A stretch of 64,000 nucleotides of DNA, from positions 60,899 to 124,898 of the IMG/VR virus record IMGVR_UViG_3300027985_000891; one strand, 5' to 3'. Of this stretch, positions 19,036-34,016 are shown one piece after another. Below the pieces are notes generated by a model. That model searched no databases. It was given only the letters and a program-made list of their open reading frames with translations, and had not been told where the DNA came from. Each line of letters begins with the position of its first letter. The first letter of the stretch is position 1. Source of the DNA: a virus. The position numbers and the translations under genes are program-made.

Positions 19036-20833
19036 AAGGATACATACGATTATTTGAAAAACTTGCACCACGCGATGACATCAGCTTTAATCATGTCGCA
19101 CATTTCATTGACGCCTTATGCTATGATATTTCACATATATTTCCAAGCGTTCCATATCATAATCAATGAGTATGATAACAAAGAGCTGGAAGAGAGTATT
19201 TCTTCTTTGTATTTTGTATTTTTATTCGGATGACCATGTTTCCATACGACAGATATTATCACTACTACACTTTGATAGACAATCTATTCAATCCTCATGG
19301 CGAGGACGGATTTAACTTCATTGAACGTATCAATATGCTCTTCAATGGCGATGAAAGAGGTATAAAGTGCGTCCTGATGATTTACTATTTACATATCGAT
19401 ATTCGTAAAGCTTATGAACAAGCATATGCACGTCAAGTACAGTTTGCAAGAAAGGAAAGATTTCTCAATACCCTCTACAACAGTGTCTCTGATTCTATAC
19501 AATACATTGTTTAATAACATGCAAAATGAAATAGGAGACTACTTGGGACAAATGACACCTTTGTATCATGAAGATATCTGGGATGATGCTTATTTAAAAA
19601 TAGATACCTTATGTATTGACTTCAAAAACTATCTACAGAAACCTGTTAGTTTTAAAGATCACTGCGTGAGTGTTTACCAAAAAATGTTTAAATGATAGGA
19701 TATAAAAAAACCATGTACTGGTATTCCCGTATACTGGATATGTCAGCCTTTTACGACAAAAACTTTAGATATATCAAAGAATTAGATAGTTTAAGATACA
19801 TTATTGGAAATGGTCTCAGATACTTTTACTAGATACCCCAGGGAGAGGCTTGCACTGTACCTTTGCCTATTTCAAACCTTAGCTACATACGATGACATTG
19901 ATTCACTTGCTTACACCATTATCGTAGAACTAAATGAGATCTATGGATTCGAATATAACTATAAGCCCGTCGTCTTCTGGAGAGGTGAAAGGGATATCAC
20001 GGATGAGATCACAAGGCAAGCTCGAACCGGTATTCCATTCATACGTTAGAATATTCAGTATATGCGAACGAATCCTACGATTTCATTACGATCAGAAGAG
20101 CTTCAGTCCAGTAACACTGATTCAAGTAGATTTTCTTCTACTGGAGGACCAGATTTTGCGTTTTACATGAAAACTTATTATAAGATCGCAGATGTATTCC
20201 TTTACACTCCACTAGGCATTCATGACGTATTAAGAAACTTTATTCAAACTTTATATGCAGCTAAAAAACTATCAAGAACTACTACAGATCATGTGTAGCA
20301 TACAAAATCAAACTACCTTCATTCTTAAGAGTCTCTATCCGGAAATGAATAACCTTAGACTGGTAATTTTTTATCATAAACATTTGGAATGGAATACATG
20401 AAACAATACATACCACTCTTCGGTTTTATGAGAACAGCTTTCCTTAGTGAAGACAGAATTCTAACAAACCGTCTTGTTGTACTCACACTTCATCTTCAAA
20501 ATCAACCACCATGGCGAACCTTATCGAGGTTAGACGCTTTAAAAGATATCAATCCGTCTTTCACATAATACGAAAAATAGCCTTTCATAAAGAACTATTC
20601 ACATTAAGCAGTGAACTGTATTATCTACAATAGCCCTATACGCTACCTACCCTAGGATATATTTCCAGATCGATATGCCGGCATTATTTTGGGTACACTC
20701 ATTTAAGTCCCCCCCTTTATATGGATGTTAGTTCCTCTATATATGGATGTTAAGTTTAGTACCCTCTAATGCATGACCCCTTCAAAGTTATCCCCCCCTT
20801 CGTTGATTACTAACTTTCCTAAATTTATACATT

Positions 20834-21187
20834 ATGTCTAAACTTGTCGGTAAGAAGGCTGACGCAGCTTTCAACGCTTTCGCATTCCGTTCTGAGATTA
20901 AGAAATCCAACGGAGATACGCAAGAAGTTTTCATGCTTGGGTTGTTCAAGGAACAACGTTACGATTCGAATGTCAGATCTGGTTGGATCCAACATTCTTC
21001 GCTTGTATCCGATCTCATGGACACGCTCTCATACGAGGAGCAAACCATTACTGGTACTGTCATGAAATCGGGCAAGCAGTTCGTTCTATACCTCGATCAG
21101 ATGCCTGCTGAGGTAGAGAATCGAGATGGTAAGCCTAGGTACGACTGTAGACCAGTTCGCATCGTTGGCTTCGAAATACCTGAATAA
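20834..21187 (+). CDS. Hypothetical beta-rich protein, possibly a highly expressed early gene
   Basis: 117 aa with codon usage distinct from its neighbours, its own upstream non-coding region and a terminator. Confidence 0.65.
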   Translation: MSKLVGKKADAAFNAFAFRSEIKKSNGDTQEVFMLGLFKEQRYDSNVRSGWIQHSSLVSDLMDTLSYEEQTITGTVMKSGKQFVLYLDQMPAEVENRDGKPRYDCRPVRIVGFEIPE

Positions 21188-21192
21188 AACCC

Positions 21193-21224
21193 CAGGGAGA
21201 GGAGAAATCCTCTCTCTGTTTTTT
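21193..21224 (+). terminator. Intrinsic terminator
   Basis: CAGGGAGAGGA-GAAA-TCCTCTCTCTG followed by a T-run. Confidence 0.75.
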
Positions 21225-24200
21225 ATTGTGTGGGTGTGGCGGGTGGGATTATTCAATCAAACTAACATGACTAGAGAACAACTGGAACGATATTGGATGC
21301 TATATCAGCTTATAGGTAGTATAACTTCCTATCGTGGTGGTTATCTAAACTTGAGCACATGGCAAGCAGCTCGTGAATTACGTGACTTATGCGGTCATGC
21401 TATCTATTACTACACCCAGATGAAATGAACAGAACATACAAATACTACATACTCTTTAGGTCTTGCCGCAAGATCTTATGGGGAACACATTTCATTAACG
21501 TGGATCATGAGGTATGCTGGCAAACAGTTTATTCCATAACGGATATATTGGTCCGTGAAGATGCTAGACAGAATATTATTTGGCTCTAAGGCTATGTATA
21601 AACACTAACTAAATGAACGATAAACCAAATAAAGTTTTGTTTGAACTGTATTTTGATATATTCCTGACTATGCATGAAGACACATTTCCAATAGGAGCTG
21701 GTATATACCTGTCACTATTTGGTATCATTGATCTGCTTGATAAACACAATAACTGATTAATAATGAGCGAGTTATACTTCAATCTCTATGTGATCATGTA
21801 TGAATACTTCTATCCTTTAGAGTTTAATATCTACATGATCATAATCGACATCCTGGATGGAAACCTATTATAGACTGTTTTCTGCGATACGTTACCACTA
21901 TCATTACCTTTATTGGATGTCCGATGCACAAATAGATGATGATACGTACTACTTACTTCATGATATCGTATTATTGTTAGATAATTATGTAAAACACTGA
22001 GTAAGAACGAGTTAAAGTGAAAAAGTATACCTAACCCCCTGATTTAGACCCTTTTGAACATACCCTCAAAACAAAAGTGCTATAATTATGGTCTTTTATG
22101 ACAATCACTACAAATCCATACTTTCTTATTATTATCTCTATTTTACTAGAACCTTTAGATTATGTTATTGGAAAGCTGATATATTTTATAATGAAGAAAG
22201 AGATCGTTTTTTATACTATGCTCTATATGATATGATTCAGTTTATTAATACTTATCAAGTCCCAGGGAGATGAAGGTTTATATCCTCTTATTTAACTGTG
22301 ATATGTTCGCACATTCATATTATTTCTACTATAATGGCCACCCGGCAGATTATGTGTATGTCTCTTTACATAACCTATACGACTTACTAAAAGATGACTA
22401 AACTATATCCTCTTATCTTTCGATTGATCTGGATCAATTCTTATGTCTATTATGTATATGTTGATACTGAGGGCGAAGAGGTTTCTGATGCAGCACATAA
22501 ACTATACACTTTACTAAAATGACTCACTATCTTATCTATATTCGAACATTTCATGATCTTCTTATTCATGTAGAAACAGAGCATACCTTACGGGAACTTT
22601 CTCATGCTCTTTATCGTATCTATCTTCCTATCTATGATAACTATGTACAAGCGTAAACCTTTCTATAAGCTCATCTTTCATATGTTGGACCTGTTTACTA
22701 ATAATCCTTATACTTATAATCCACCATATGAAGATGTCCGTAAAAGTGCTGTATTTTTGTTACATCATATCTACAATCATGAATGACTCTATCAACTATA
22801 CTTTACTCATCAATCTGACCCGCAAAGCTCTCAAATTGTATCTGGATGAGTACATGAAATTCGTTATTCCAGAGTCTCTACCAGCATTTATAGCCATGCA
22901 TCAACTGTATTATGTTTTACATTATGATCTACCCGATAACATACTCTAAGTTATTCAGACACTTCTATATGATTATTTATAACGATTCTCATAGTAGACT
23001 ATCAAGAGATGCAAATAGGACTTTATTTAGACTTGATATCTTACTACAAAGTACAAAGACTAACTTTCCTTTCACATGAACATTTATTATCTTATATGGA
23101 TCAGAAAATACTTCGCTGAGTATTGGCTTTTCTATCAGCTTCACTATGAGGTGTATAGCATTTTATATGAAATTATAACACTTCACGATGAATACTTTAC
23201 ATCACATGATCAGAAGTATTAAGGATTATCTGTTTCTTCTCTGGTTTGATACTAATGTGTATAATCCTGACTTCGACCAGCTCAGAACACTTCATTATCT
23301 TTGGGAAGAGTTCGCTTACCTTTCTAACCAATTTTATCGAATCAACTGTTATGTTTGATTTGATGCTAAGAGTTCTTACAACGTATTTGTATAACCAGTA
23401 TGAAGAACCATACTGTCTGCCAACAGTTCTATCTGTCTATCAACTATATCATGTTTTACACTATGAACTACCAGATGTACTTTAGAAAGTTAAGATTGTG
23501 TTGCGGACATTATCTGCCATTATTGAATGTACATGATCACTTGTTGCTTATCCAGATATATAATGATATCGATTATCTGATTGCTATACACATGAGACAA
23601 TATGGTAAATATAATGCGTGATGTTACAAGCTATTACAGCTATTACTTCATAGAGACCCCAGAGGGATGGATTCGTGATCTTCCCCAAGAATATTATGAT
23701 GTAGACAAAGTATGTAGAATGCTATATTTTATTCTTCATAATGAAGCATGTGCTTCTAAATTATCTTTCTATGATACTGAAGTTTAAGATCTGTTTCCGG
23801 ATCATTCGCATGATGATTATTTATAATCATAAGTTTTTATTTTCTATGATAATAACATCTAGATACATTAATACTATTGGTAGTCTATCTTTTGAAGTAT
23901 CACCAGCTTTTCATCAAACTTATATTGAAGTACATAATGCATCAGTAAAACTCATTGACTGCCTCACTACACATTTTGAACCATGAATGAGAAGATTTAC
24001 ATCCAGTACTATTCCTGGTTTCTTAATATGATACTTCTCAAGGATACAGTAACCGGAGGAGGTGCTGTATTCTTCAAAGTACTTTCACTTAGAGACGATT
24101 TATCTCAAACAATTCAAAGAACTTATGGGCCTACCAATTAACTATTTACCTTCTTACTATGTCTGGCATGATACAGCAACTGTCTTTTTCTATTACTATG

Positions 24201-25870
24201 AGAATCGGTTTGACTTACAAGGACCAGAACTTACTGCTGTAGTTAATGCCATTTATAGTATGGGTCTTAGCGTGAGAATTCGCAAGCGCCGTTATGGATA
24301 AATATACTACAAATCTTAAACACTTTAAGACAGTTATAGATATACTTTATAAGTATTACTACTTTTATCTAAATCCTCATTCACGTATTCATATTGCCAT
24401 ATTTAGAATATCACTTAACTCCTTTTTAAATGAAAACAATAACATTAGATCATCAAACACCTGATGATACCATGGACATCCTGGAAAAGCTTAAAGCTAA
24501 TGGGCATACGGATGTTATTATTAGCTATAATGGAATAGCTAAAGTTTATAACATCGACGTTTATCTGGACATCCTAAACAACTACTTTGATGGACTTGAA
24601 AACATACAAGAGCATGCTGAACATGATTGAGCAAATGATGTGGATAGCGACAAATAAGAGTGGATATCATGCTTGGAAAGCTTGCGATTCGCTACTTGTA
24701 ACTTTAAGAGAGCAGGTAAATATTTGATAACTTTTGTAATACTATCAACATGAAAAACCTGCTCTTTTATTACTATATAATGCGTAGTATGAGATTATGT
24801 CTTTATATTGAATATGAGGATGGGAAACGTCAAGATATAGTCAAAGATGTTTGGTATCAATCTATTTTATTATCCAACTTTATATACCATGACCAAATTT
24901 AGTCTTAAAGATCATACATATCTTCTTGGATGGGTCCGTGATCATTTAGCTCATAACATTATGAATGTGTATGAAGAAGAACATCCTTGGGTCTATGCAA
25001 TTTATTTAGTAGCTTGTATATCTAATCATGATCAATCTTACCCTTCTTAAGTTATTAGTTAGCTCCTTTCTCCTGGGATCTGTATGTGATCCGGATAACT
25101 TTGATTTCGTCTGTACTACACCAGTTGGACTTCAAATCTTTGATGATCATATAAACGGTTGTCATGGAGCTAGATACATTCAGGTAACAAATGTTACTTC
25201 AGATTCTATAACATTATATGTTAAAGATAGTGTTGTTATCAACTCGTTTGAAGGTAACATCACAATTGAACTCCCATGCCATTAGAGACATATCTATCTA
25301 TCTTCAGAATGTTCAAAACAAGGATTGAAACATCTGCTGATACATTTGGATGCTACTATTGTACTCAGTCAATCATTAACGCATACTGGTATCATATAGT
25401 AAGATATAAGTAATTTCCCCTTTTAAACACTCAGTCATTGGGAGGCCTTTGGGTCTCCCTTTTATAATTATGAACGCTATAATATACTATCAACTTTTCT
25501 GTGCTGCTTATAACTTATTTGTTTCACATTATTGGCCTATAAGCTATAATTGTTCATCTATAGCTAACGATATTCAAGAGCTATCATGGAAATGTAGATA
25601 TCTGAAGTATCATGATATAACCACTATAAAATAAAAAAACATGAAAAAGACTATCGTATTCTTATGCTTTTGCATGATCATACTGATCTGTGCATTTGTT
25701 ATACATTTCCTGGAACCTATAATAGGACCAGGTGCAGCGATCTTTATTACCTTACCTGCTGCTGCAGTTATACTTATGAATGTAGCTATTAAAGTATATG
25801 ATCGCTATGGATAGAAATTTTATGTGACAGAGTAAAAACACTGATTATTAACTTATTTAAAATATGAAAC

Positions 25871-26488
25871 ATGAATATTTTAGCATCACGTCCCATGGAC
25901 GTTATCAAAAGAAGAATCGTATTAACAGGTACAAAGGACATCATGTTCGACCGGTACGCCGGCGACAACAACACAAAGTTGGAACCAGCTCAGAAGTTAT
26001 ACCTGAAGCCAGAACCGGACGGAGAGTTGCCCAGTATTATACTACCGGCGGCCAATTTTATGAGCTTCTTATCCGCCCATAATACCAACTCTGCTCCAAA
26101 GAGGCTGAGGGATGCAAGAAAATATAAGGCAATAGCCAATGCTTGTTTATCATTTGTAGATATTGAGGAAGAGCATATTCCTTTTATGAGGAATGGTAAA
26201 CCTATTAAGTTTGATAGGTTTAATGCTGAAGAGATCGATACTGTCAGTGGATGTTATATCCATCGTAGTGTAGCAAGATTGGAAAAGGGTATACCTAATC
26301 CAAAAGTACGACCAGTGCTTCCTAAACCATGGAGTGTTGAGTTTACGATGGTTATTCATCCAAATAAGGAAATCAAAGAAACAGAGATCTACAACCTTAT
26401 TTCTGAAGGAGGTATTGCAATAGGTTTAGGTACCTATCGTGGTGTCTTTGGAAAGTTTGTTGTAGAAGCTTGGGATGAAATAAAGTAG
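25871..26488 (+). CDS. Solo RAMP (Cas7-like) protein
   Basis: N-terminal strand RIVLTGTKDIMF, IILPAANFMSFL (RAMP IP-helix motif), late strand WSVEFTM and C-terminal Gly-rich loop GGIAIGLGTYRGVFGKF. Confidence 0.75.
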   Translation: MNILASRPMDVIKRRIVLTGTKDIMFDRYAGDNNTKLEPAQKLYLKPEPDGELPSIILPAANFMSFLSAHNTNSAPKRLRDARKYKAIANACLSFVDIEEEHIPFMRNGKPIKFDRFNAEEIDTVSGCYIHRSVARLEKGIPNPKVRPVLPKPWSVEFTMVIHPNKEIKETEIYNLISEGGIAIGLGTYRGVFGKFVVEAWDEIK

Positions 26489-27279
26489 GCAAGGTATGGA
26501 GGGGCTCTGATCGGTGTGGAGAGGAGGGGCGATGCAAGACGCTGCACTGCATAAGATAACTCTACCTGGGAAACTGGGTAGAGTTTTTTATTATAAACAT
26601 ATGTGCTTGGTTGAGCTTGGATCGGAAAGGAGTGGCAATGTAAGGATAGGCTCGGAAATGATAGGCAAGGATAGCTTTTTACCCAAAACTAAAAATATAA
26701 TCAATGCTAGGCTCGGCACGTCTCTGACTGGCCCTTCCTGGCCCTGCCTGGAGGGGCGGTGCTATGCTTTGATAGGCAAGGAATGGTTTTTACCCTGAAA
26801 CTGAAGATATAACGCGTAAGTGTGAGGAAGTGCTAGGCCCTGACAGGCGAGTCTCGGAGTGGATGGGATTGGTAAGGATTTGCTAGGCAAGATTTTTATA
26901 CCTAAAACTAAAAATATACTAAGAATAACTTGGATAGTCACGGACTGGACTGGAGGGGATTTGCTAGGACAGGCGGTGCTAGGATGGGATTGGCGAGGAT
27001 GGGCACTGAAAGGTAGTGAAAGGAGAGGCTATACAAGGCAAGGCTTTTACCCAAAACTAAAGATATAATACTCAGAAACATTGGCCGGGATGGGCATGGA
27101 TGGTCAAGGATGGGACTGGAGTGGAGGTGATAGGCACTGCAAGGATTGGTTTACCCAAAACTAAAGATATATTTTAGGCGGATCCAGGCTGGGTACTGCC
27201 CGGACCGGCTGCGATAGGAGTTGCCCGGATGGGAGGGGAGAGGCTCTGCAAGGAAAGGTCTTGCTTTGCTAGGCAAGGT
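26486..27279 (+). repeat. Array of seven pentamer-periodic tracts (NN+GGH/TGH) with a conserved linker; putative guide-like ncRNA array
   Basis: Tracts at 26486-26550, 26602-26671, 26703-26787, 26819-26893, 26930-27044, 27081-27150 and 27175-27279; linker consensus TTTTACCCAAAACTAAARATATA follows tracts 2-6. Confidence 0.9.
26558..26590 (+). terminator. Terminator-like hairpin after the first pentamer tract
   Basis: ACTCTACCTGG-GAAA-CTGGGTAGAGT followed by a T-run. Confidence 0.7.
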
Positions 27280-27458
27280 TATATTATCGTTGTAACTAAA
27301 TAACTTGTTATATGAAATCTGTTACTATTTATCCGGATCCCATTGCCCAATTACTTGATAAGATTGATAAGGAGAATGAACAAAAGCATAAGAAAGAAAT
27401 GATTATGCCGGCATCTCACAAGATTACCTTGTTTTTCTTATCTCTTTATTAGTTGTTC

Positions 27459-27483
27459 GAGGGGGTCGAAAGACTCCCTTTTT
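27459..27483 (+). terminator. Intrinsic terminator
   Basis: GGGGGTC-GAAA-GACTCCC followed by TTTTT. Confidence 0.7.
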
Positions 27484-28511
27484 ATCTGAAACTTTTAAAA
27501 TAAAACATAATGGCAAAGAAACTGACATCTCAAACGGTGAACACTTTCATGAAAATTACTCATTTGTTTATCCATGATACTGAAATAGCAAAGAAGAAGT
27601 ATTGGGAGAACAATAAGAAGAGCTCTCCTCAGAGCGATTTCTATGATACAGCGCTAAGTAGAGCTAATGAGCTATTGGAGAAGTTACAGAAGCTCTATGA
27701 CTCTATCGTAAAGGATGAAAAGAAAGAAGTATAGAGTCTATGCGTTCCCTAAGAAATACGCTAGAGTTTATATGCTTCTTTTTAGATCCATAATGTATGT
27801 AAACAGATTAAGAGCATCTAACTCATTTAGTAAATATGCTCTTTATGTAGATCTTAGAGTACTCATTTCGTTACTTAGACTGTATATTCGACATAAACAT
27901 GAGTATTTCGAATAAGTTTCAATGGTACTTCTCTTTATTGGTATGGATGTCTCAACATATAACTAATAAGTTAAATCCTTTAGATCAGTATAATGAACAG
28001 ATGTATATTGCAGATGAGCTTATCAGATTAAGTAGTATAGCTTATCATATGTATCTTATTCATTTCAAAGAGAACACAAACCCCAGAGGGTGAGGATGAT
28101 ATGATTACCTATAAATGAATATGGAACAGAGAACTATGTATCAACGCAGATTCTATCATTACTGCTATGACTTCTTTCATTGGCGTCTATTAATATGGGA
28201 TAGAGATATGCACGATTTCAGTAATGAGACTTTGAATATGATCTTGGAACTGGAAACTAAAGTGAGAGTTCTTTATCGGATGTTAGATGATTGTCCTCGC
28301 GCGCGTACTTAACTATACTATAATTATAGTTTATACTATAAAAAAGATATATGTTATATCTATTAGTATGTGTTCCTCTCCCTGGGATCTTGTCTATAGT
28401 TAGTGTATCTACTGTAAGTAAGTACAGTTAGTATACTTACTATAAGGGTCTAACAATCGAGGTACATAAAATGTTTTAAAAAAGTTTACTTATTGCTTAA
28501 AATATACAACG

Positions 28512-30511: not shown

Positions 30512-31534
30512 ATGAAACACTTTTTGTTCATTTCAGTATTCTTATGTGTAATAGCTGATATCTATTCACAACAATGTTTTGTAACAGACTTCGAATATCA
30601 GTTCTATGTACCACCTGATCATAACCATCAGACTGATAGAGCATTACATACTCACTGTCTAACGATTTTTGCCGTAGTAGACTACTTTACTTATCTTGAT
30701 TTTAATGGCAATGAGCCGGCAATAGTACAATGGGTAGAAGATAACTGGAGTAATGTAAAAGAGGTCTTTGCTATTGAAAATGTTAGTGTGGATGTATCAG
30801 CTATTCACATTTATACAGAACCGGATTGGATCACATTGGGTACCTATAATAATATTCAAGAAGTACTTTATGATTTTGGTGGTTTCATTAAAGACGATGT
30901 CAATGGACGCTTCAAATGTATGATGACCACCTATGAATGGGGAGGTGGTATTGGTTGGGTAGGAGGATATAATACTCCTCGTAAACCGGTATACAATCAG
31001 AGTGGCTTATTAGGATACTATGGCGCATACAATGTGTGTGGTAACTTATCTAAAACAGTTACTGATTATCCTGCTTATTCATGGAATACAAATGTACTTG
31101 CTCATGAACTGGGACATAACCTTGGACTTGGACATACCCACGATGGTATATGGGGTCCTAATAATGATATGAGAGTTGACGATTGTGCAGGTAATCCTAT
31201 GACACCGGTTATTATGCCTATTGAATATAGTACTGCTATGAGTTATTGTCATCTTACATCTCATGGTATTGATCACACCAAAGGATTTGGTTTCTATCCT
31301 GGTGAACTTATGCGAGCTAACATCTTTGCTACTCCTATGTTGGAGATAGTCGATGGTACCTTAATTCTTCAAGGCCTTCTTCAAGGTTATGAGTATCAGG
31401 CTTCAGAGATTATTATTCCTAATGGTGGAAACAGCGCAAACTATTATCTTACTTTGAGAGCAGATGAAGTTACTATCGAAAATAACTTTATAGCTTATCC
31501 AACTTTTCAAATTTATCCCTCAGTGTGTAATTAG
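30512..31534 (+). CDS. Secreted metzincin (reprolysin/M12B-like) metallopeptidase
   Basis: Signal peptide, HELGHNLGLGH zinc motif and Met-turn AMSYCH. Confidence 0.85.
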   Translation: MKHFLFISVFLCVIADIYSQQCFVTDFEYQFYVPPDHNHQTDRALHTHCLTIFAVVDYFTYLDFNGNEPAIVQWVEDNWSNVKEVFAIENVSVDVSAIHIYTEPDWITLGTYNNIQEVLYDFGGFIKDDVNGRFKCMMTTYEWGGGIGWVGGYNTPRKPVYNQSGLLGYYGAYNVCGNLSKTVTDYPAYSWNTNVLAHELGHNLGLGHTHDGIWGPNNDMRVDDCAGNPMTPVIMPIEYSTAMSYCHLTSHGIDHTKGFGFYPGELMRANIFATPMLEIVDGTLILQGLLQGYEYQASEIIIPNGGNSANYYLTLRADEVTIENNFIAYPTFQIYPSVCN

Positions 31535-32004: not shown

Positions 32005-32796
32005 ATGGCAAACGATAAGCTTTATGGACTGTTAGCAGTCACTGATTCTTTAGCTGTTTCTTTTAAGAATATGCTTAAGGATTATATCAACTTTTTCAAA
32101 AATAATCAAGGAGCATTTACTGGAGAAAAGAAAACATATACTCCAGCCGGTGATGCTGTTGATGAACCTAAACACCGCGGTAACAGACTTGTTCAAACTA
32201 CTGTAGATGAAAAGTTTGAATGGTTTGTTGAAAATACGGAAAAGTACTTAAAAACACTGTTTGATCAAGAAGCTACCAATGCATCTGGCATGGCAGTAGC
32301 TGATCTAATTGTTGATGGTAAAGACTTTGGAACATACAGTTCCCTCGAATTACTGAGATTGAAAAGTATCCTGGAGAATGGAGATCTCTTAGCAATGTAC
32401 GGTTTAATACCGGTTCGCTCTGATGCAGAAGAATGGAACAAAACTGTTGAAGAAAATTACAAAGATAGGGCGATATATGAGAATCCAATGTTATCTTGGG
32501 ATAATAAAACTACTGAAAAGGAGAGTTACATTCTAACAGATCCTAACTTGGATAAAATAGGAGATAAAAACTATACTCCACAATTAGGAACTAAGAATAC
32601 AACACGCCTCCTGGGGCATGGTACCACTCAAAAATTTAGTGGTGAATGGTCTCAAAGACAACGAGCTACTGCACTGAAAAGAATTAAACTGTTTCACATA
32701 GGAGTAGTAGAAGCTTTGAAAAAAGCCAATGATGTAGAAATACGTAGCTCTGTATTTGATCCGAAAAAGTTCTTTGATTATATTAATCAAGGATAA
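32005..32796 (+). CDS. Uncharacterised protein, helical with a long beta-hairpin
   Basis: 263 aa; FTGEKKTYTP, VQTTVDEK, ELLRLK, FSGE and ALKKAN resemble a widespread uncharacterised family; followed by a structured RNA. Confidence 0.7.
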   Translation: MANDKLYGLLAVTDSLAVSFKNMLKDYINFFKNNQGAFTGEKKTYTPAGDAVDEPKHRGNRLVQTTVDEKFEWFVENTEKYLKTLFDQEATNASGMAVADLIVDGKDFGTYSSLELLRLKSILENGDLLAMYGLIPVRSDAEEWNKTVEENYKDRAIYENPMLSWDNKTTEKESYILTDPNLDKIGDKNYTPQLGTKNTTRLLGHGTTQKFSGEWSQRQRATALKRIKLFHIGVVEALKKANDVEIRSSVFDPKKFFDYINQG

Positions 32797-33899: not shown

Positions 33900-34016
33900 G
33901 CGCAGGTGGTGGAATTGGCAGACACGTTGATTTTTGAGGAGTCAATATCCTTTTATTTAAGGCGTTCTGTTTTCTAGCGACACGAGCGTTTGCAGGTTCG
34001 AATCCTGCCCTGCGCA
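33900..34016 (+). tRNA. Atypical tRNA-Leu-like gene with ambiguous anticodon and 46-nt variable region
   Basis: Acceptor GCGCAGG/CCTGCGC with discriminator A, Leu-type D-arm GTGGAATTGGCAGACAC, T-arm GCAGG-TTCGAAT-CCTGC; no encoded CCA. Confidence 0.7.

What the first reader, a model, noticed from the sequence alone, without database searches (positions are those of the whole stretch)
26662..27171. Conserved handle and linker delimit individual RNA units
Most tracts end in (TA/AA)GGC-AAG(G), and tracts 2-6 are followed by a ~23-nt linker: TTTTACCCAAAACTAAAAATATA, TTTTACCCTGAAACTGAAGATATA, TTTTATACCTAAAACTAAAAATATA, TTTTACCCAAAACTAAAGATATA, TTTACCCAAAACTAAAGATATA. It is non-palindromic, unlike typical Cas6 substrates. 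Inference: it is a processing, termination or promoter signal releasing roughly 95-150-nt RNAs of unequal length, and the array grows by unit duplication followed by NN diversification.
Basis: partly seen in the sequence, partly recalled or inferred. Interest (0 to 1): 0.7.

Follow-up and report, generated by a model that had tools for sequence, protein, structure and literature searches.

The report
Guide-RNA boundaries in a phage VIPR array
The conserved "handle" and 22-25-base linker are real and mark the boundaries between guide RNAs of a VIPR system, a CRISPR-related phage system first described in 2026, so this is a new example of a known kind.

Summary
Five 22-25-nt linkers lie exactly where quoted. 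They are 80-96% alike and occur nowhere else in the 124,898-bp contig. Five of seven tracts end in TAGGC-AAGG or a one-letter variant.

The array is a VIPR guide-RNA (vrRNA) array. The upstream 205-aa gene folds as a Cas7/Csm3-like RAMP and matches the solved SUSP1 Vipr chain at its G-loop. Same-strand NNGGN tracts accompany this gene family in 100 of 102 loci. VIPR preprints describe vrRNAs as pentamer repeats plus an invariable 3' tail.

Handle plus linker are therefore this phage's constant 3' end and inter-guide spacer. The terminal RAGGC-RAGG followed by A/T-rich sequence is family-wide. Unlike the SUSP1 tail, this linker is short and unstructured.

Whether the linker is kept as a tail, cut, or acts as a promoter remains open, because no RNA data exist. 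"Duplication then NN diversification" found no support. One related contig lacks units 3-5.

This scan has already found VIPR loci in at least 9 other genomes.

The parts
25871..26488 (+). vipr gene (205 aa, RAMP/Cas7-like, protein P0001)
   Evidence: No Pfam family. 2275 homologues at E<=1e-3. AF2 pLDDT 85.1. Top Foldseek hits are Csm3 chains, E 3e-6. The profile matches the SUSP1 Vipr chain 36pp_D at E 1e-4 over the G-loop.
26486..26550 (+). Unit 1: about 13 pentamers that start on the vipr stop codon; no terminal handle or linker
26558..26591 (+). Terminator-like hairpin (12 pairs) plus T-run that closes unit 1
26602..26671 (+). Unit 2 tract (about 14 pentamers) ending in the handle TAGGCAAGG at 26662-26670
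26677..26699 (+). Linker 1 (23 nt)
26703..26787 (+). Unit 3 tract (17 pentamers), handle at 26773-26781
26788..26811 (+). Linker 2 (24 nt, with a 2-nt insertion)
26819..26892 (+). Unit 4 tract (14 pentamers) plus the handle variant TAGGCAAGA at 26884-26892
26894..26918 (+). Linker 3 (25 nt)
26930..27044 (+). Unit 5 tract (about 23 pentamers), handle variant AAGGCAAGG at 27035-27043
27045..27067 (+). Linker 4 (23 nt)
27081..27150 (+). Unit 6 tract (14 pentamers), interrupted handle at 27131-27145
27150..27171 (+). Linker 5 (22 nt)
27175..27279 (+). Unit 7 tract (about 21 pentamers), handle at 27270-27278
27280..27305 (+). Degenerate last linker copy; shares only AACTAAA (27294-27300) with the five linkers
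27312..27452 (+). 46-aa ORF between the array and the next terminator; belonging to the system is not shown
   Evidence: no Pfam family
27459..27488 (+). Terminator-like hairpin plus T-run; possible end of the array transcript

Best explanation
The region is the guide-RNA array of a VIPR system in a crAss-like phage. The gene at 25871-26488 encodes the Vipr protein, a lone Cas7-like RAMP. The seven GG-periodic tracts are vrRNA guide regions. By the published mechanism, one Vipr protomer binds each pentamer and the two variable letters of each pentamer read target DNA with a one-base skip. The 'handle' (TAGGC-AAGG) is the constant last two pentamers of each guide. The 22-25-nt linker is this phage's version of the invariable 3' tail, or inter-guide spacer, that separates one vrRNA from the next.

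My reading of how the units are made is an inference, not shown here. The array is transcribed rightward with or just after vipr. Vipr filaments cover the tracts up to the handle. The short, unstructured, A/U-rich linker is left exposed and is cut or trimmed by host RNases, giving units of roughly 105-150 nt.

What is shown: the anatomy, the protein fold and family, the family-wide linkage of gene and tracts, the family-wide 3' boundary, and the lack of structure in the linker.

What is inferred: transcription, Vipr binding, where the RNA ends lie, and DNA targeting.

My odds: VIPR array 0.93; handle plus linker form the unit boundary 0.8; precursor processing rather than a promoter for each unit about 0.5.
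For: Protein. The model has pLDDT 85.1 and pTM 0.82. The best Foldseek matches are Csm3/Cas7 chains of type III CRISPR complexes, E 3e-6 to 1e-4. The profile of 20 family members hits one relevant PDB sequence, 'SUSP1 Vipr protein' 36pp_D, at E 1.1e-4. The match covers the G-loop. The Arg aligned with SUSP1 R138, an aromatic residue at W178 and Arg at R179 are kept; these residues are named as RNA contacts in the paper section read.

Linkage. My GG-phase detector finds 7 tracts in the window, all on the + strand and all in the array, and none elsewhere in 64 kb. It finds at least one same-strand tract in 100 of 102 related loci. In 90 of 91 loci where the gene was located, a tract lies within 400 nt of it. 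Only 2 weak minus-strand calls appear in the 81 loci. On the experimentally studied SUSP1 locus the same detector recovers the published layout of one tract upstream and three downstream.

Boundary. Across 216 distinct tracts of relatives, the last two pentamers have A at NN position 2 in 80-81%, against 34% overall. The next 7 bases are 75-87% A+T, against 46% background. The 5' side has no comparable motif.

Literature. vrRNAs are 9-16 YNNGG repeats followed by an invariable 3' tail, and they co-purify with Vipr. [quoted passage not shown] In the SUSP1 work, sharing the consensus tail is treated as making a vrRNA competent for Vipr complex formation.

Processing. In relatives, linkers can be as short as 7-16 nt, which leaves no room for a promoter.

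Polymorphism. One related contig joins unit 2 directly to unit 6 through a shorter, diverged linker that lacks the ATATA end.
Against: There is no RNA evidence of any kind for this phage. The linker differs from the only structurally studied tail. It is 22-25 nt with 0 predicted pairs. The four SUSP1 tails, in contrast, give a helix with compensatory changes in 4 of 5 pairs. Units 1 and 7 lack a full linker: there are 5 linkers for 6 consecutive units, and only a degenerate copy after unit 7. A 3' tail therefore cannot be strictly required in this form. Each linker ends in a -10-like hexamer (TATAAT, TATAAC, TATACT, TATAAT, TATATT), so a promoter for each unit is not excluded. The pentamer motif is looser than published GGY: position 3 is G 74% / T 25%, and position 5 is A 44% / C 45% / T 10%. 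No conserved accessory (vap) gene was found within 3 kb. No DNA target was found for any guide. The sequence match to SUSP1 Vipr covers only about 50 residues, and Foldseek TM-scores are modest (0.31-0.55).
Confidence: 0.8

Rival explanations
1. Each linker is a small transcription module. The T-run after the handle ends the upstream RNA, and the conserved block ending in TATA(A/C/T)(T/C) is a promoter for the next unit. Every vrRNA would then be a primary transcript and not a processing product.
For: All five linkers end in a -10-like hexamer, and conservation stops right after it. Each linker starts with a run of 3-5 T directly or 5 nt after the handle. The handle region of unit 7 scores as a weak terminator-like hairpin. 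An A/T-rich stretch with TATAAA also precedes unit 2, which has no linker.
Against: The sigma-70-type scan finds no + strand promoter inside the array. The -35-like TTTACC sits only 12-13 nt from the -10-like hexamer. The motif occurs nowhere else in 125 kb, so it is not a general phage or host promoter. Relatives have linkers of only 7-16 nt. The variant contig keeps unit 6 behind a linker that lacks the ATATA end, but this is a single contig at depth 2.7.
Confidence: 0.2
2. The linker is the recognition site of a sequence-specific endonuclease, either Vipr itself or another phage protein. It would be cut as Cas6 cuts CRISPR repeats, but without a hairpin.
For: Vipr is a RAMP, and Cas6 nucleases are RAMPs. 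The linker is a conserved, array-specific sequence.
Against: None of the passages I read ascribes nuclease activity to Vipr. Linkers of relatives with 55-70% identical proteins share no sequence with this one, whereas the handle is shared. No second RAMP or conserved neighbouring gene was found.
Confidence: 0.08
3. The linkers act mainly at the DNA level, as short homologous blocks where recombination deletes, duplicates or swaps guide cassettes between related phages.
For: A related contig lacks units 3-5 (402 nt), with the break points inside linkers. The linkers are 80-96% identical while the guides are unrelated.
Against: The junction linker in that contig is diverged (18 other letters) and is not a clean hybrid of two reference linkers. 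This role would not explain the family-wide strand bias or the conserved handle. It could coexist with the RNA role rather than replace it.
Confidence: 0.1
4. The linker is a self-cleaving ribozyme, as in the hammerhead-interspersed VIPR arrays reported for types I and V.
For: Such arrays are reported in the VIPR preprint (text and legend of fig. S19).
Against: At 22-25 nt with 0 predicted pairs it is too short and unstructured. Rfam has no match in the window except one tRNA elsewhere. The long linkers of 10 related loci also gave no ribozyme match.
Confidence: 0.01

Closest known systems
Type II VIPR system of Escherichia phage SUSP1 (Vipr YP_009199429.1, vap1, four vrRNAs); bioRxiv 10.64898/2026.04.26.720920, .720927 and 2026.10.15.759431
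   Same: Both have a lone RAMP protein of about 200 aa, with same-strand pentamer tracts beside the gene. Both show variable NN positions and fixed G positions. In both, a constant last pentamer is followed by a constant 3' segment after every tract, and both are phage-encoded.
   Different: The proteins align only over about 50 C-terminal residues (E 1e-4). The SUSP1 tail is about 40 nt with a covarying helix or pseudoknot, whereas this linker is 22-25 nt and unstructured. SUSP1 repeats are NNGGT, here NN-(G/T)-G-(A/C/T). SUSP1 has vap1 directly after vipr; here the array follows vipr and no conserved neighbour exists. SUSP1 has 4 guides of 7-16 pentamers by my detector; here there are 7 guides of 13-23.
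Other VIPR array architectures (staggered arrays, hammerhead-interspersed arrays, single-vrRNA loci; repeat variants NNNGG, YNNNG, NNNNG, WGT/NN, TGH/NN)
   Same: They show that inter-guide segments and the fixed trinucleotide vary between clades. A relaxed motif and a different spacer therefore lie within the known range.
   Different: I could not see the figures or supplementary tables. I therefore cannot tell whether this protein family, its RAGGC-RAGG terminal handle or a short unstructured spacer is already catalogued. No ribozyme was detected here.
Class 1 CRISPR crRNA: repeat-derived handles cut by Cas6, spacers bound by Cas7 filaments
   Same: Both use a RAMP filament on a guide RNA, alternate a constant segment with variable guide segments, and arrange the guides as an array.
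   Different: Here there is no palindromic repeat and no cas gene set. The guide is itself a 5-nt repeat, not a free spacer, and the units differ in length (105-151 nt).
TIGR-Tas arrays (tandem interspaced guide RNAs)
   Same: They are a non-CRISPR guide array found in phages.
   Different: Their period is 18 nt and their effectors are Tas proteins (passages only). Here the period is 5 nt and the effector is a RAMP.

Membership tests
VIPR system | Vipr protein: a small RAMP with RRM core, glycine-rich loop and thumb | tested here: met
   AF2 model at pLDDT 85.1. Csm3/Cas7 chains are the top Foldseek hits. The profile hits the SUSP1 Vipr chain at E 1.1e-4. The G-loop G-x-G-x-[FY]-R-x-x-F-G-K-F aligns with SUSP1 G-V-G-D-W-R-P-R-F-G-R-F.
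VIPR system | Tandem pentanucleotide repeats (GGY/NN or a related consensus) on the gene strand beside vipr | tested here: met
   Seven tracts, + strand only. The consensus is relaxed to (G/T)G(A/C/T) in the window and is GGC in relatives. 100 of 102 related loci have such tracts.
VIPR system | An invariable 3' extension (tail) after each repeat tract | tested here: met
   A conserved linker follows 5 of 7 tracts, a degenerate copy follows tract 7, and a terminator hairpin follows tract 1.
VIPR system | Accessory gene (vap) next to vipr (stated as typical, not universal) | tested here: not met
   Clustering ORFs of 102 loci plus this genome gave no neighbour family beyond vipr in more than 20 loci. 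Nothing follows vipr here but the array.
VIPR system | vrRNAs are expressed and bound by Vipr | not testable with these tools
   No RNA run was available, so expression and binding could not be examined here.
VIPR system | NN dinucleotides match natural DNA targets under the 1-nt skip rule | tested here: inconclusive
   No match above shuffled controls in the phage's own 125 kb or in 577 kb of related loci. Four exact sub-patterns had no hit in IMG/VR. Mismatch-tolerant searches of large collections were not possible.
SUSP1-clade (type II) vrRNA tail | About 40-nt tail with a conserved hairpin or pseudoknot | tested here: not met
   0 predicted pairs in five linkers, against 5 pairs with 4 compensatory in the four SUSP1 tails.
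CRISPR array | Direct repeats of 23-50 nt alternating with unique spacers, with cas genes nearby | tested here: not met
   The 'spacers' are themselves 5-nt periodic and 70-115 nt long. The only RAMP is the lone vipr gene, and no Pfam Cas family was found in the neighbours scanned.
Hammerhead-interspersed VIPR array | A self-cleaving ribozyme between guides | tested here: not met
   No Rfam ribozyme in the window. The linker has no structure.

The most novel reading that the evidence does not exclude
In this large Vipr family, guide maturation may need no dedicated nuclease, ribozyme or structured tail. A family-wide terminal code, two constant pentamers RAGGC-RAGG followed by A/U-rich RNA, would set where the Vipr filament ends. 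Host RNases would then trim the bare linker. The same short linkers would double as recombination points at which whole guide cassettes are lost, gained or exchanged between related phages. That would be a route to new guides without Cas1/Cas2.
Probability: 0.2. Interest if true: 0.55.

Novelty: new member of a known kind. Interest (0 to 1): 0.35.

Why it matters
It places a VIPR system in an environmental crAss-like phage. The word 'crAss' does not occur in the main text of the first VIPR preprint or of the language-model survey. It also documents a tail type unlike the one studied structurally.

Two measurements may help people who annotate or engineer VIPR guides. First, this Vipr family shares a terminal RAGGC-RAGG handle followed by A/T-rich sequence, while the rest of the spacer differs from locus to locus. 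Second, the fixed trinucleotide here tolerates T at its first position and A at its third. This goes together with G-loop changes (I182, I184, Y189) in this protein and its closest relative.

None of this changes the known picture of how VIPR works.

Tried and rejected
RNA evidence. The look-up of sequencing runs listed no RNA holder, so RNA ends could not be mapped.

Closer relatives. The linker pattern found only two coding-region chance hits without tracts in IMG/VR. The metagenome scan gave nothing closer than 70%.

Targets. No guide matched the phage's own contig or the fetched loci above shuffled controls. Four exact 9-10-unit sub-patterns of guides 6, 5, 4 and 7 had no IMG/VR hit.

Ribozymes. 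Rfam found none in the window, in 10 related loci, or in the L068 and L099 arrays at E up to 10.

Structure. Single-unit folds were no more stable than shuffles, with z from -0.96 to +1.77.

Promoter. The sigma-70-type scan found nothing on the + strand of the array. A resemblance of the linker to the T3 RNA-polymerase promoter, which I recalled from memory, was dropped because the motif is absent from the rest of the genome.

phi14:2 lead. The abundant early non-coding RNAs reported for the crAss-like phage phi14:2 (passages only) lie in regions without pentamer tracts or 5-nt periodicity. They are not VIPR arrays.

VIPR type. It could not be assigned, because figures are not held and supplements are closed. 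My guess of type I rests only on the text naming six vap genes for types II-VII.

Full report
WHAT IS THERE. Reading window 26000-27800 shows a non-coding stretch from 26486 to 27279 in which GG recurs every 5 bases. It starts on the stop codon of a 205-codon ORF. A simple phase detector (GG or TG at pentamer positions 3-4) finds seven tracts, all on the + strand: 26486-26535, 26617-26671, 26703-87, 26819-88, 26940-27044, 27081-150 and 27185-279. It finds nothing else in the 64-kb window on either strand. Written in register, the tracts hold 13, 14, 17, 14, 23, 14 and 21 pentamers of the form NN-(G/T)-G-(A/C/T).

THE OBSERVATION. The five quoted linkers each occur once, at 26677, 26788, 26894, 27045 and 27150. 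They are 22-25 nt long, 12-29% G+C against 47-62% for the tracts, and 80-96% identical in pairs. Four copies at up to 3 mismatches compare with 0.01 expected by shuffling. The whole 124,898-bp contig has no other copy. The handle TAGGCAAGG is not enriched in the window overall (11 matches at up to 1 mismatch against 10.4 expected). However, 6 of those 11 lie in the array, on the + strand, at tract ends or at the start of tract 1. Tracts 2, 3, 4, 5 and 7 end in it, tract 6 has it interrupted, and tract 1 ends instead in a 12-pair hairpin plus T-run. After tract 7 there is only a degenerate linker copy that shares AACTAAA. Linker-to-linker distances are 111, 106, 151 and 105 nt.

THE PROTEIN. 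The ORF (P0001) has no Pfam family and only a weak hit to a PHROG of unknown function. It belongs to a large and very conserved family: 2275 proteins at E<=1e-3, and 76% mean column identity among 20 aligned members. Its AlphaFold model (pLDDT 85.1) is most like Csm3/Cas7 subunits of type III CRISPR complexes (E 3e-6 and up, TM 0.31-0.55). A profile of the family hits one relevant PDB sequence, 'SUSP1 Vipr protein' (36pp_D, E 1.1e-4). The match covers the last strands and the glycine-rich loop.

THE LITERATURE. That name led to four 2026 preprints. I read Results, Discussion and the type-classification method of 10.64898/2026.04.26.720920, plus passages that include its supplementary legends. 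I read one Results section and passages of .720927. I read passages only of 2026.10.15.759431 and 2026.10.21.760802. Figures and supplements were not seen.

These papers describe VIPR systems as follows. A phage-encoded ancestral RAMP (Vipr) polymerises on vrRNAs made of 9-16 YNNGG repeats, one protomer per repeat. The NN letters pair with double-stranded DNA targets with one base skipped between pairs, which silences competing phages and satellites. Each repeat tract 'precedes an invariable 3' extension', the tail, which forms a pseudoknot in the SUSP1 clade and caps the RNA's 3' end. Seven types are named, with varied array layouts (staggered, hammerhead-interspersed, single guide) and varied repeat consensus.

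LINKAGE OF GENE AND TRACTS. I fetched 80 IMG/VR loci, 21 metagenome loci and Burkholderia phage vB_E436, whose proteins are 44-71% identical to P0001. The detector finds a same-strand tract in 100 of these 102 loci. Of the two misses, L006 has a visible short tract below threshold and L106 ends at the gene. In 90 of 91 loci where both gene and tract were located, a tract lies within 400 nt: upstream only in 35, downstream only in 26, both in 29. Nine loci were left out of that count because my peptide motif did not find the gene. In the 81 loci there were two weak minus-strand calls. As a positive control, the detector recovers the published SUSP1 layout of one tract upstream and three downstream of vipr-vap1, all on the gene strand. 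The window's capsid gene matches the Crassvirus major capsid family (E 1e-42), so the host phage is crAss-like.

WHAT THE HANDLE AND LINKER ARE. Over 4144 pentamers of relatives, the NN positions carry 0.04-0.14 bit. Position 5, which the detector does not use, is C in 88%. Positions 3-4 were used for detection, so their values are inflated. The last two pentamers differ from the rest: NN position 2 is A in 80-81% (34% overall) and NN position 1 is A or G in 87-91%. The next seven bases are 75-87% A+T against a 46% background. The 5' side shows only a C at -1. The window's TAGGC-AAGG followed by a T-run is therefore the local form of a family-wide 3' boundary.

The rest of the spacer is specific to each locus. 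In relatives it ranges from 7-25 nt and A/T-rich to 45-101 nt with hairpins. Spacers of 7-16 nt leave no room for a promoter, which favours transcription of a precursor that is then cut.

The window's linker has no structure. Single units fold no better than shuffles. RNAalifold gives 0 pairs for the five handle-plus-linker copies. For the four SUSP1 tails it gives 5 pairs, 4 of them with compensatory changes.

MECHANISM, WITH ODDS. I take handle plus linker to be the constant 3' end and inter-guide spacer of each vrRNA (0.8). The most likely route, at about even odds, has three steps. The array is transcribed rightward. Vipr covers each tract up to the handle. The bare A/U-rich linker is then cut or trimmed by host RNases.

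The main rival (0.2) is a promoter for each unit. Every linker ends in a -10-like hexamer and conservation stops there. Against this, the consensus scan finds no + strand promoter and the -35-like block is only 12-13 nt away. The motif is also unique to the array.

The NN strings of the seven units, with handles removed, share runs of at most 3 pentamers, which is no more than shuffled order gives (P=0.79). I therefore see no trace of duplication followed by divergence.

Laying contigs of four metagenome runs on the region gave two results.
- One run has a 151-nt contig (depth 2.7, one other letter on each side) that joins 26673 to 27076 through 18 different letters. In other words, unit 2 is followed by unit 6, behind a shorter linker without the ATATA end.
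- The same run also has the reference order across linker 1, with three differences (26736, 26737, 26757). All three lie at fixed-motif positions and none at NN.

Unit content thus varies between close relatives, but this rests on a single low-depth contig.

DIFFERENCES FROM THE DESCRIBED SYSTEMS. The tail is short and unstructured. The fixed trinucleotide is relaxed, with T at its first letter in 25% and A at its third in 44%. P0001 and its nearest relative carry I182, I184 and Y189 in the G-loop where most of the family has R, L and F. These positions align beside SUSP1 residues said to shape the pyrimidine pocket. A link between the two observations is my inference. No conserved accessory gene lies within 3 kb in this family. 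I found no targets.

VERDICT. The feature is real and was read correctly as a unit boundary. It belongs to a system published in 2026, which this scan has already met in at least 9 other genomes. It is a new member of a known kind. The modest added value lies in the family-wide terminal handle and in the unstructured spacer.

Noticed in passing
window 26486-27185: The pentamer phase shifts by +1 at each of the first five junctions: tract starts modulo 5 are 1, 2, 3, 4, 0, 1, then 0 (arithmetic coordinates). Every spacer therefore breaks the 5-nt register by the same amount, although spacer lengths differ. Relatives show no such rule; for example, L092 has 25-nt spacers.
   Followed up: partly
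window 33900-34016 (+): Rfam tRNA match (42.6 bits) spread over 117 nt for a 71-position model, while ARAGORN finds no tRNA in the window. It may be an interrupted or unusual tRNA-like element.
   Followed up: no
window 19800-25800 and 27500-28300 (+): Dense run of overlapping 50-100-codon ORFs on the + strand upstream and downstream of the VIPR locus. None of those scanned has a Pfam family.
   Followed up: no
L109 (phage SUSP1) 1898-1917, 3163-3182, 3311-3330: Each SUSP1 tract is preceded by a conserved leader of about 17 nt (AGAGGGTYTTTTAAKT-like) as well as followed by its tail. The passages I read mention the tail but not this leader.
   Followed up: no
L110 (phage phi14:2) 2905-4601: The long early non-coding region of phi14:2 has no 5-nt periodicity but ends with a tRNA-like T-arm and acceptor sequence.
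   Followed up: no
102 related loci: The commonest neighbour of this Vipr family is an exonuclease-like protein, in 20 loci; it is annotated 'exonuclease' in Burkholderia phage vB_E436. An ORF antisense to vipr appears in 87 loci and is probably a shadow of the conserved gene.
   Followed up: partly
window 30512-31534 and 32005-32796 (+): A reprolysin-like zinc metallopeptidase (E 4e-10) and a DUF7873 protein (E 9e-31) lie 3-5 kb downstream of the array.
   Followed up: no
L086 607-628, L087 11253-11274: The only two IMG/VR matches to the linker pattern lie in coding sequence, and by my reading of the printed DNA both encode LPETKNI. With about one match expected by my rough estimate, I take this as chance.
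   Followed up: partly
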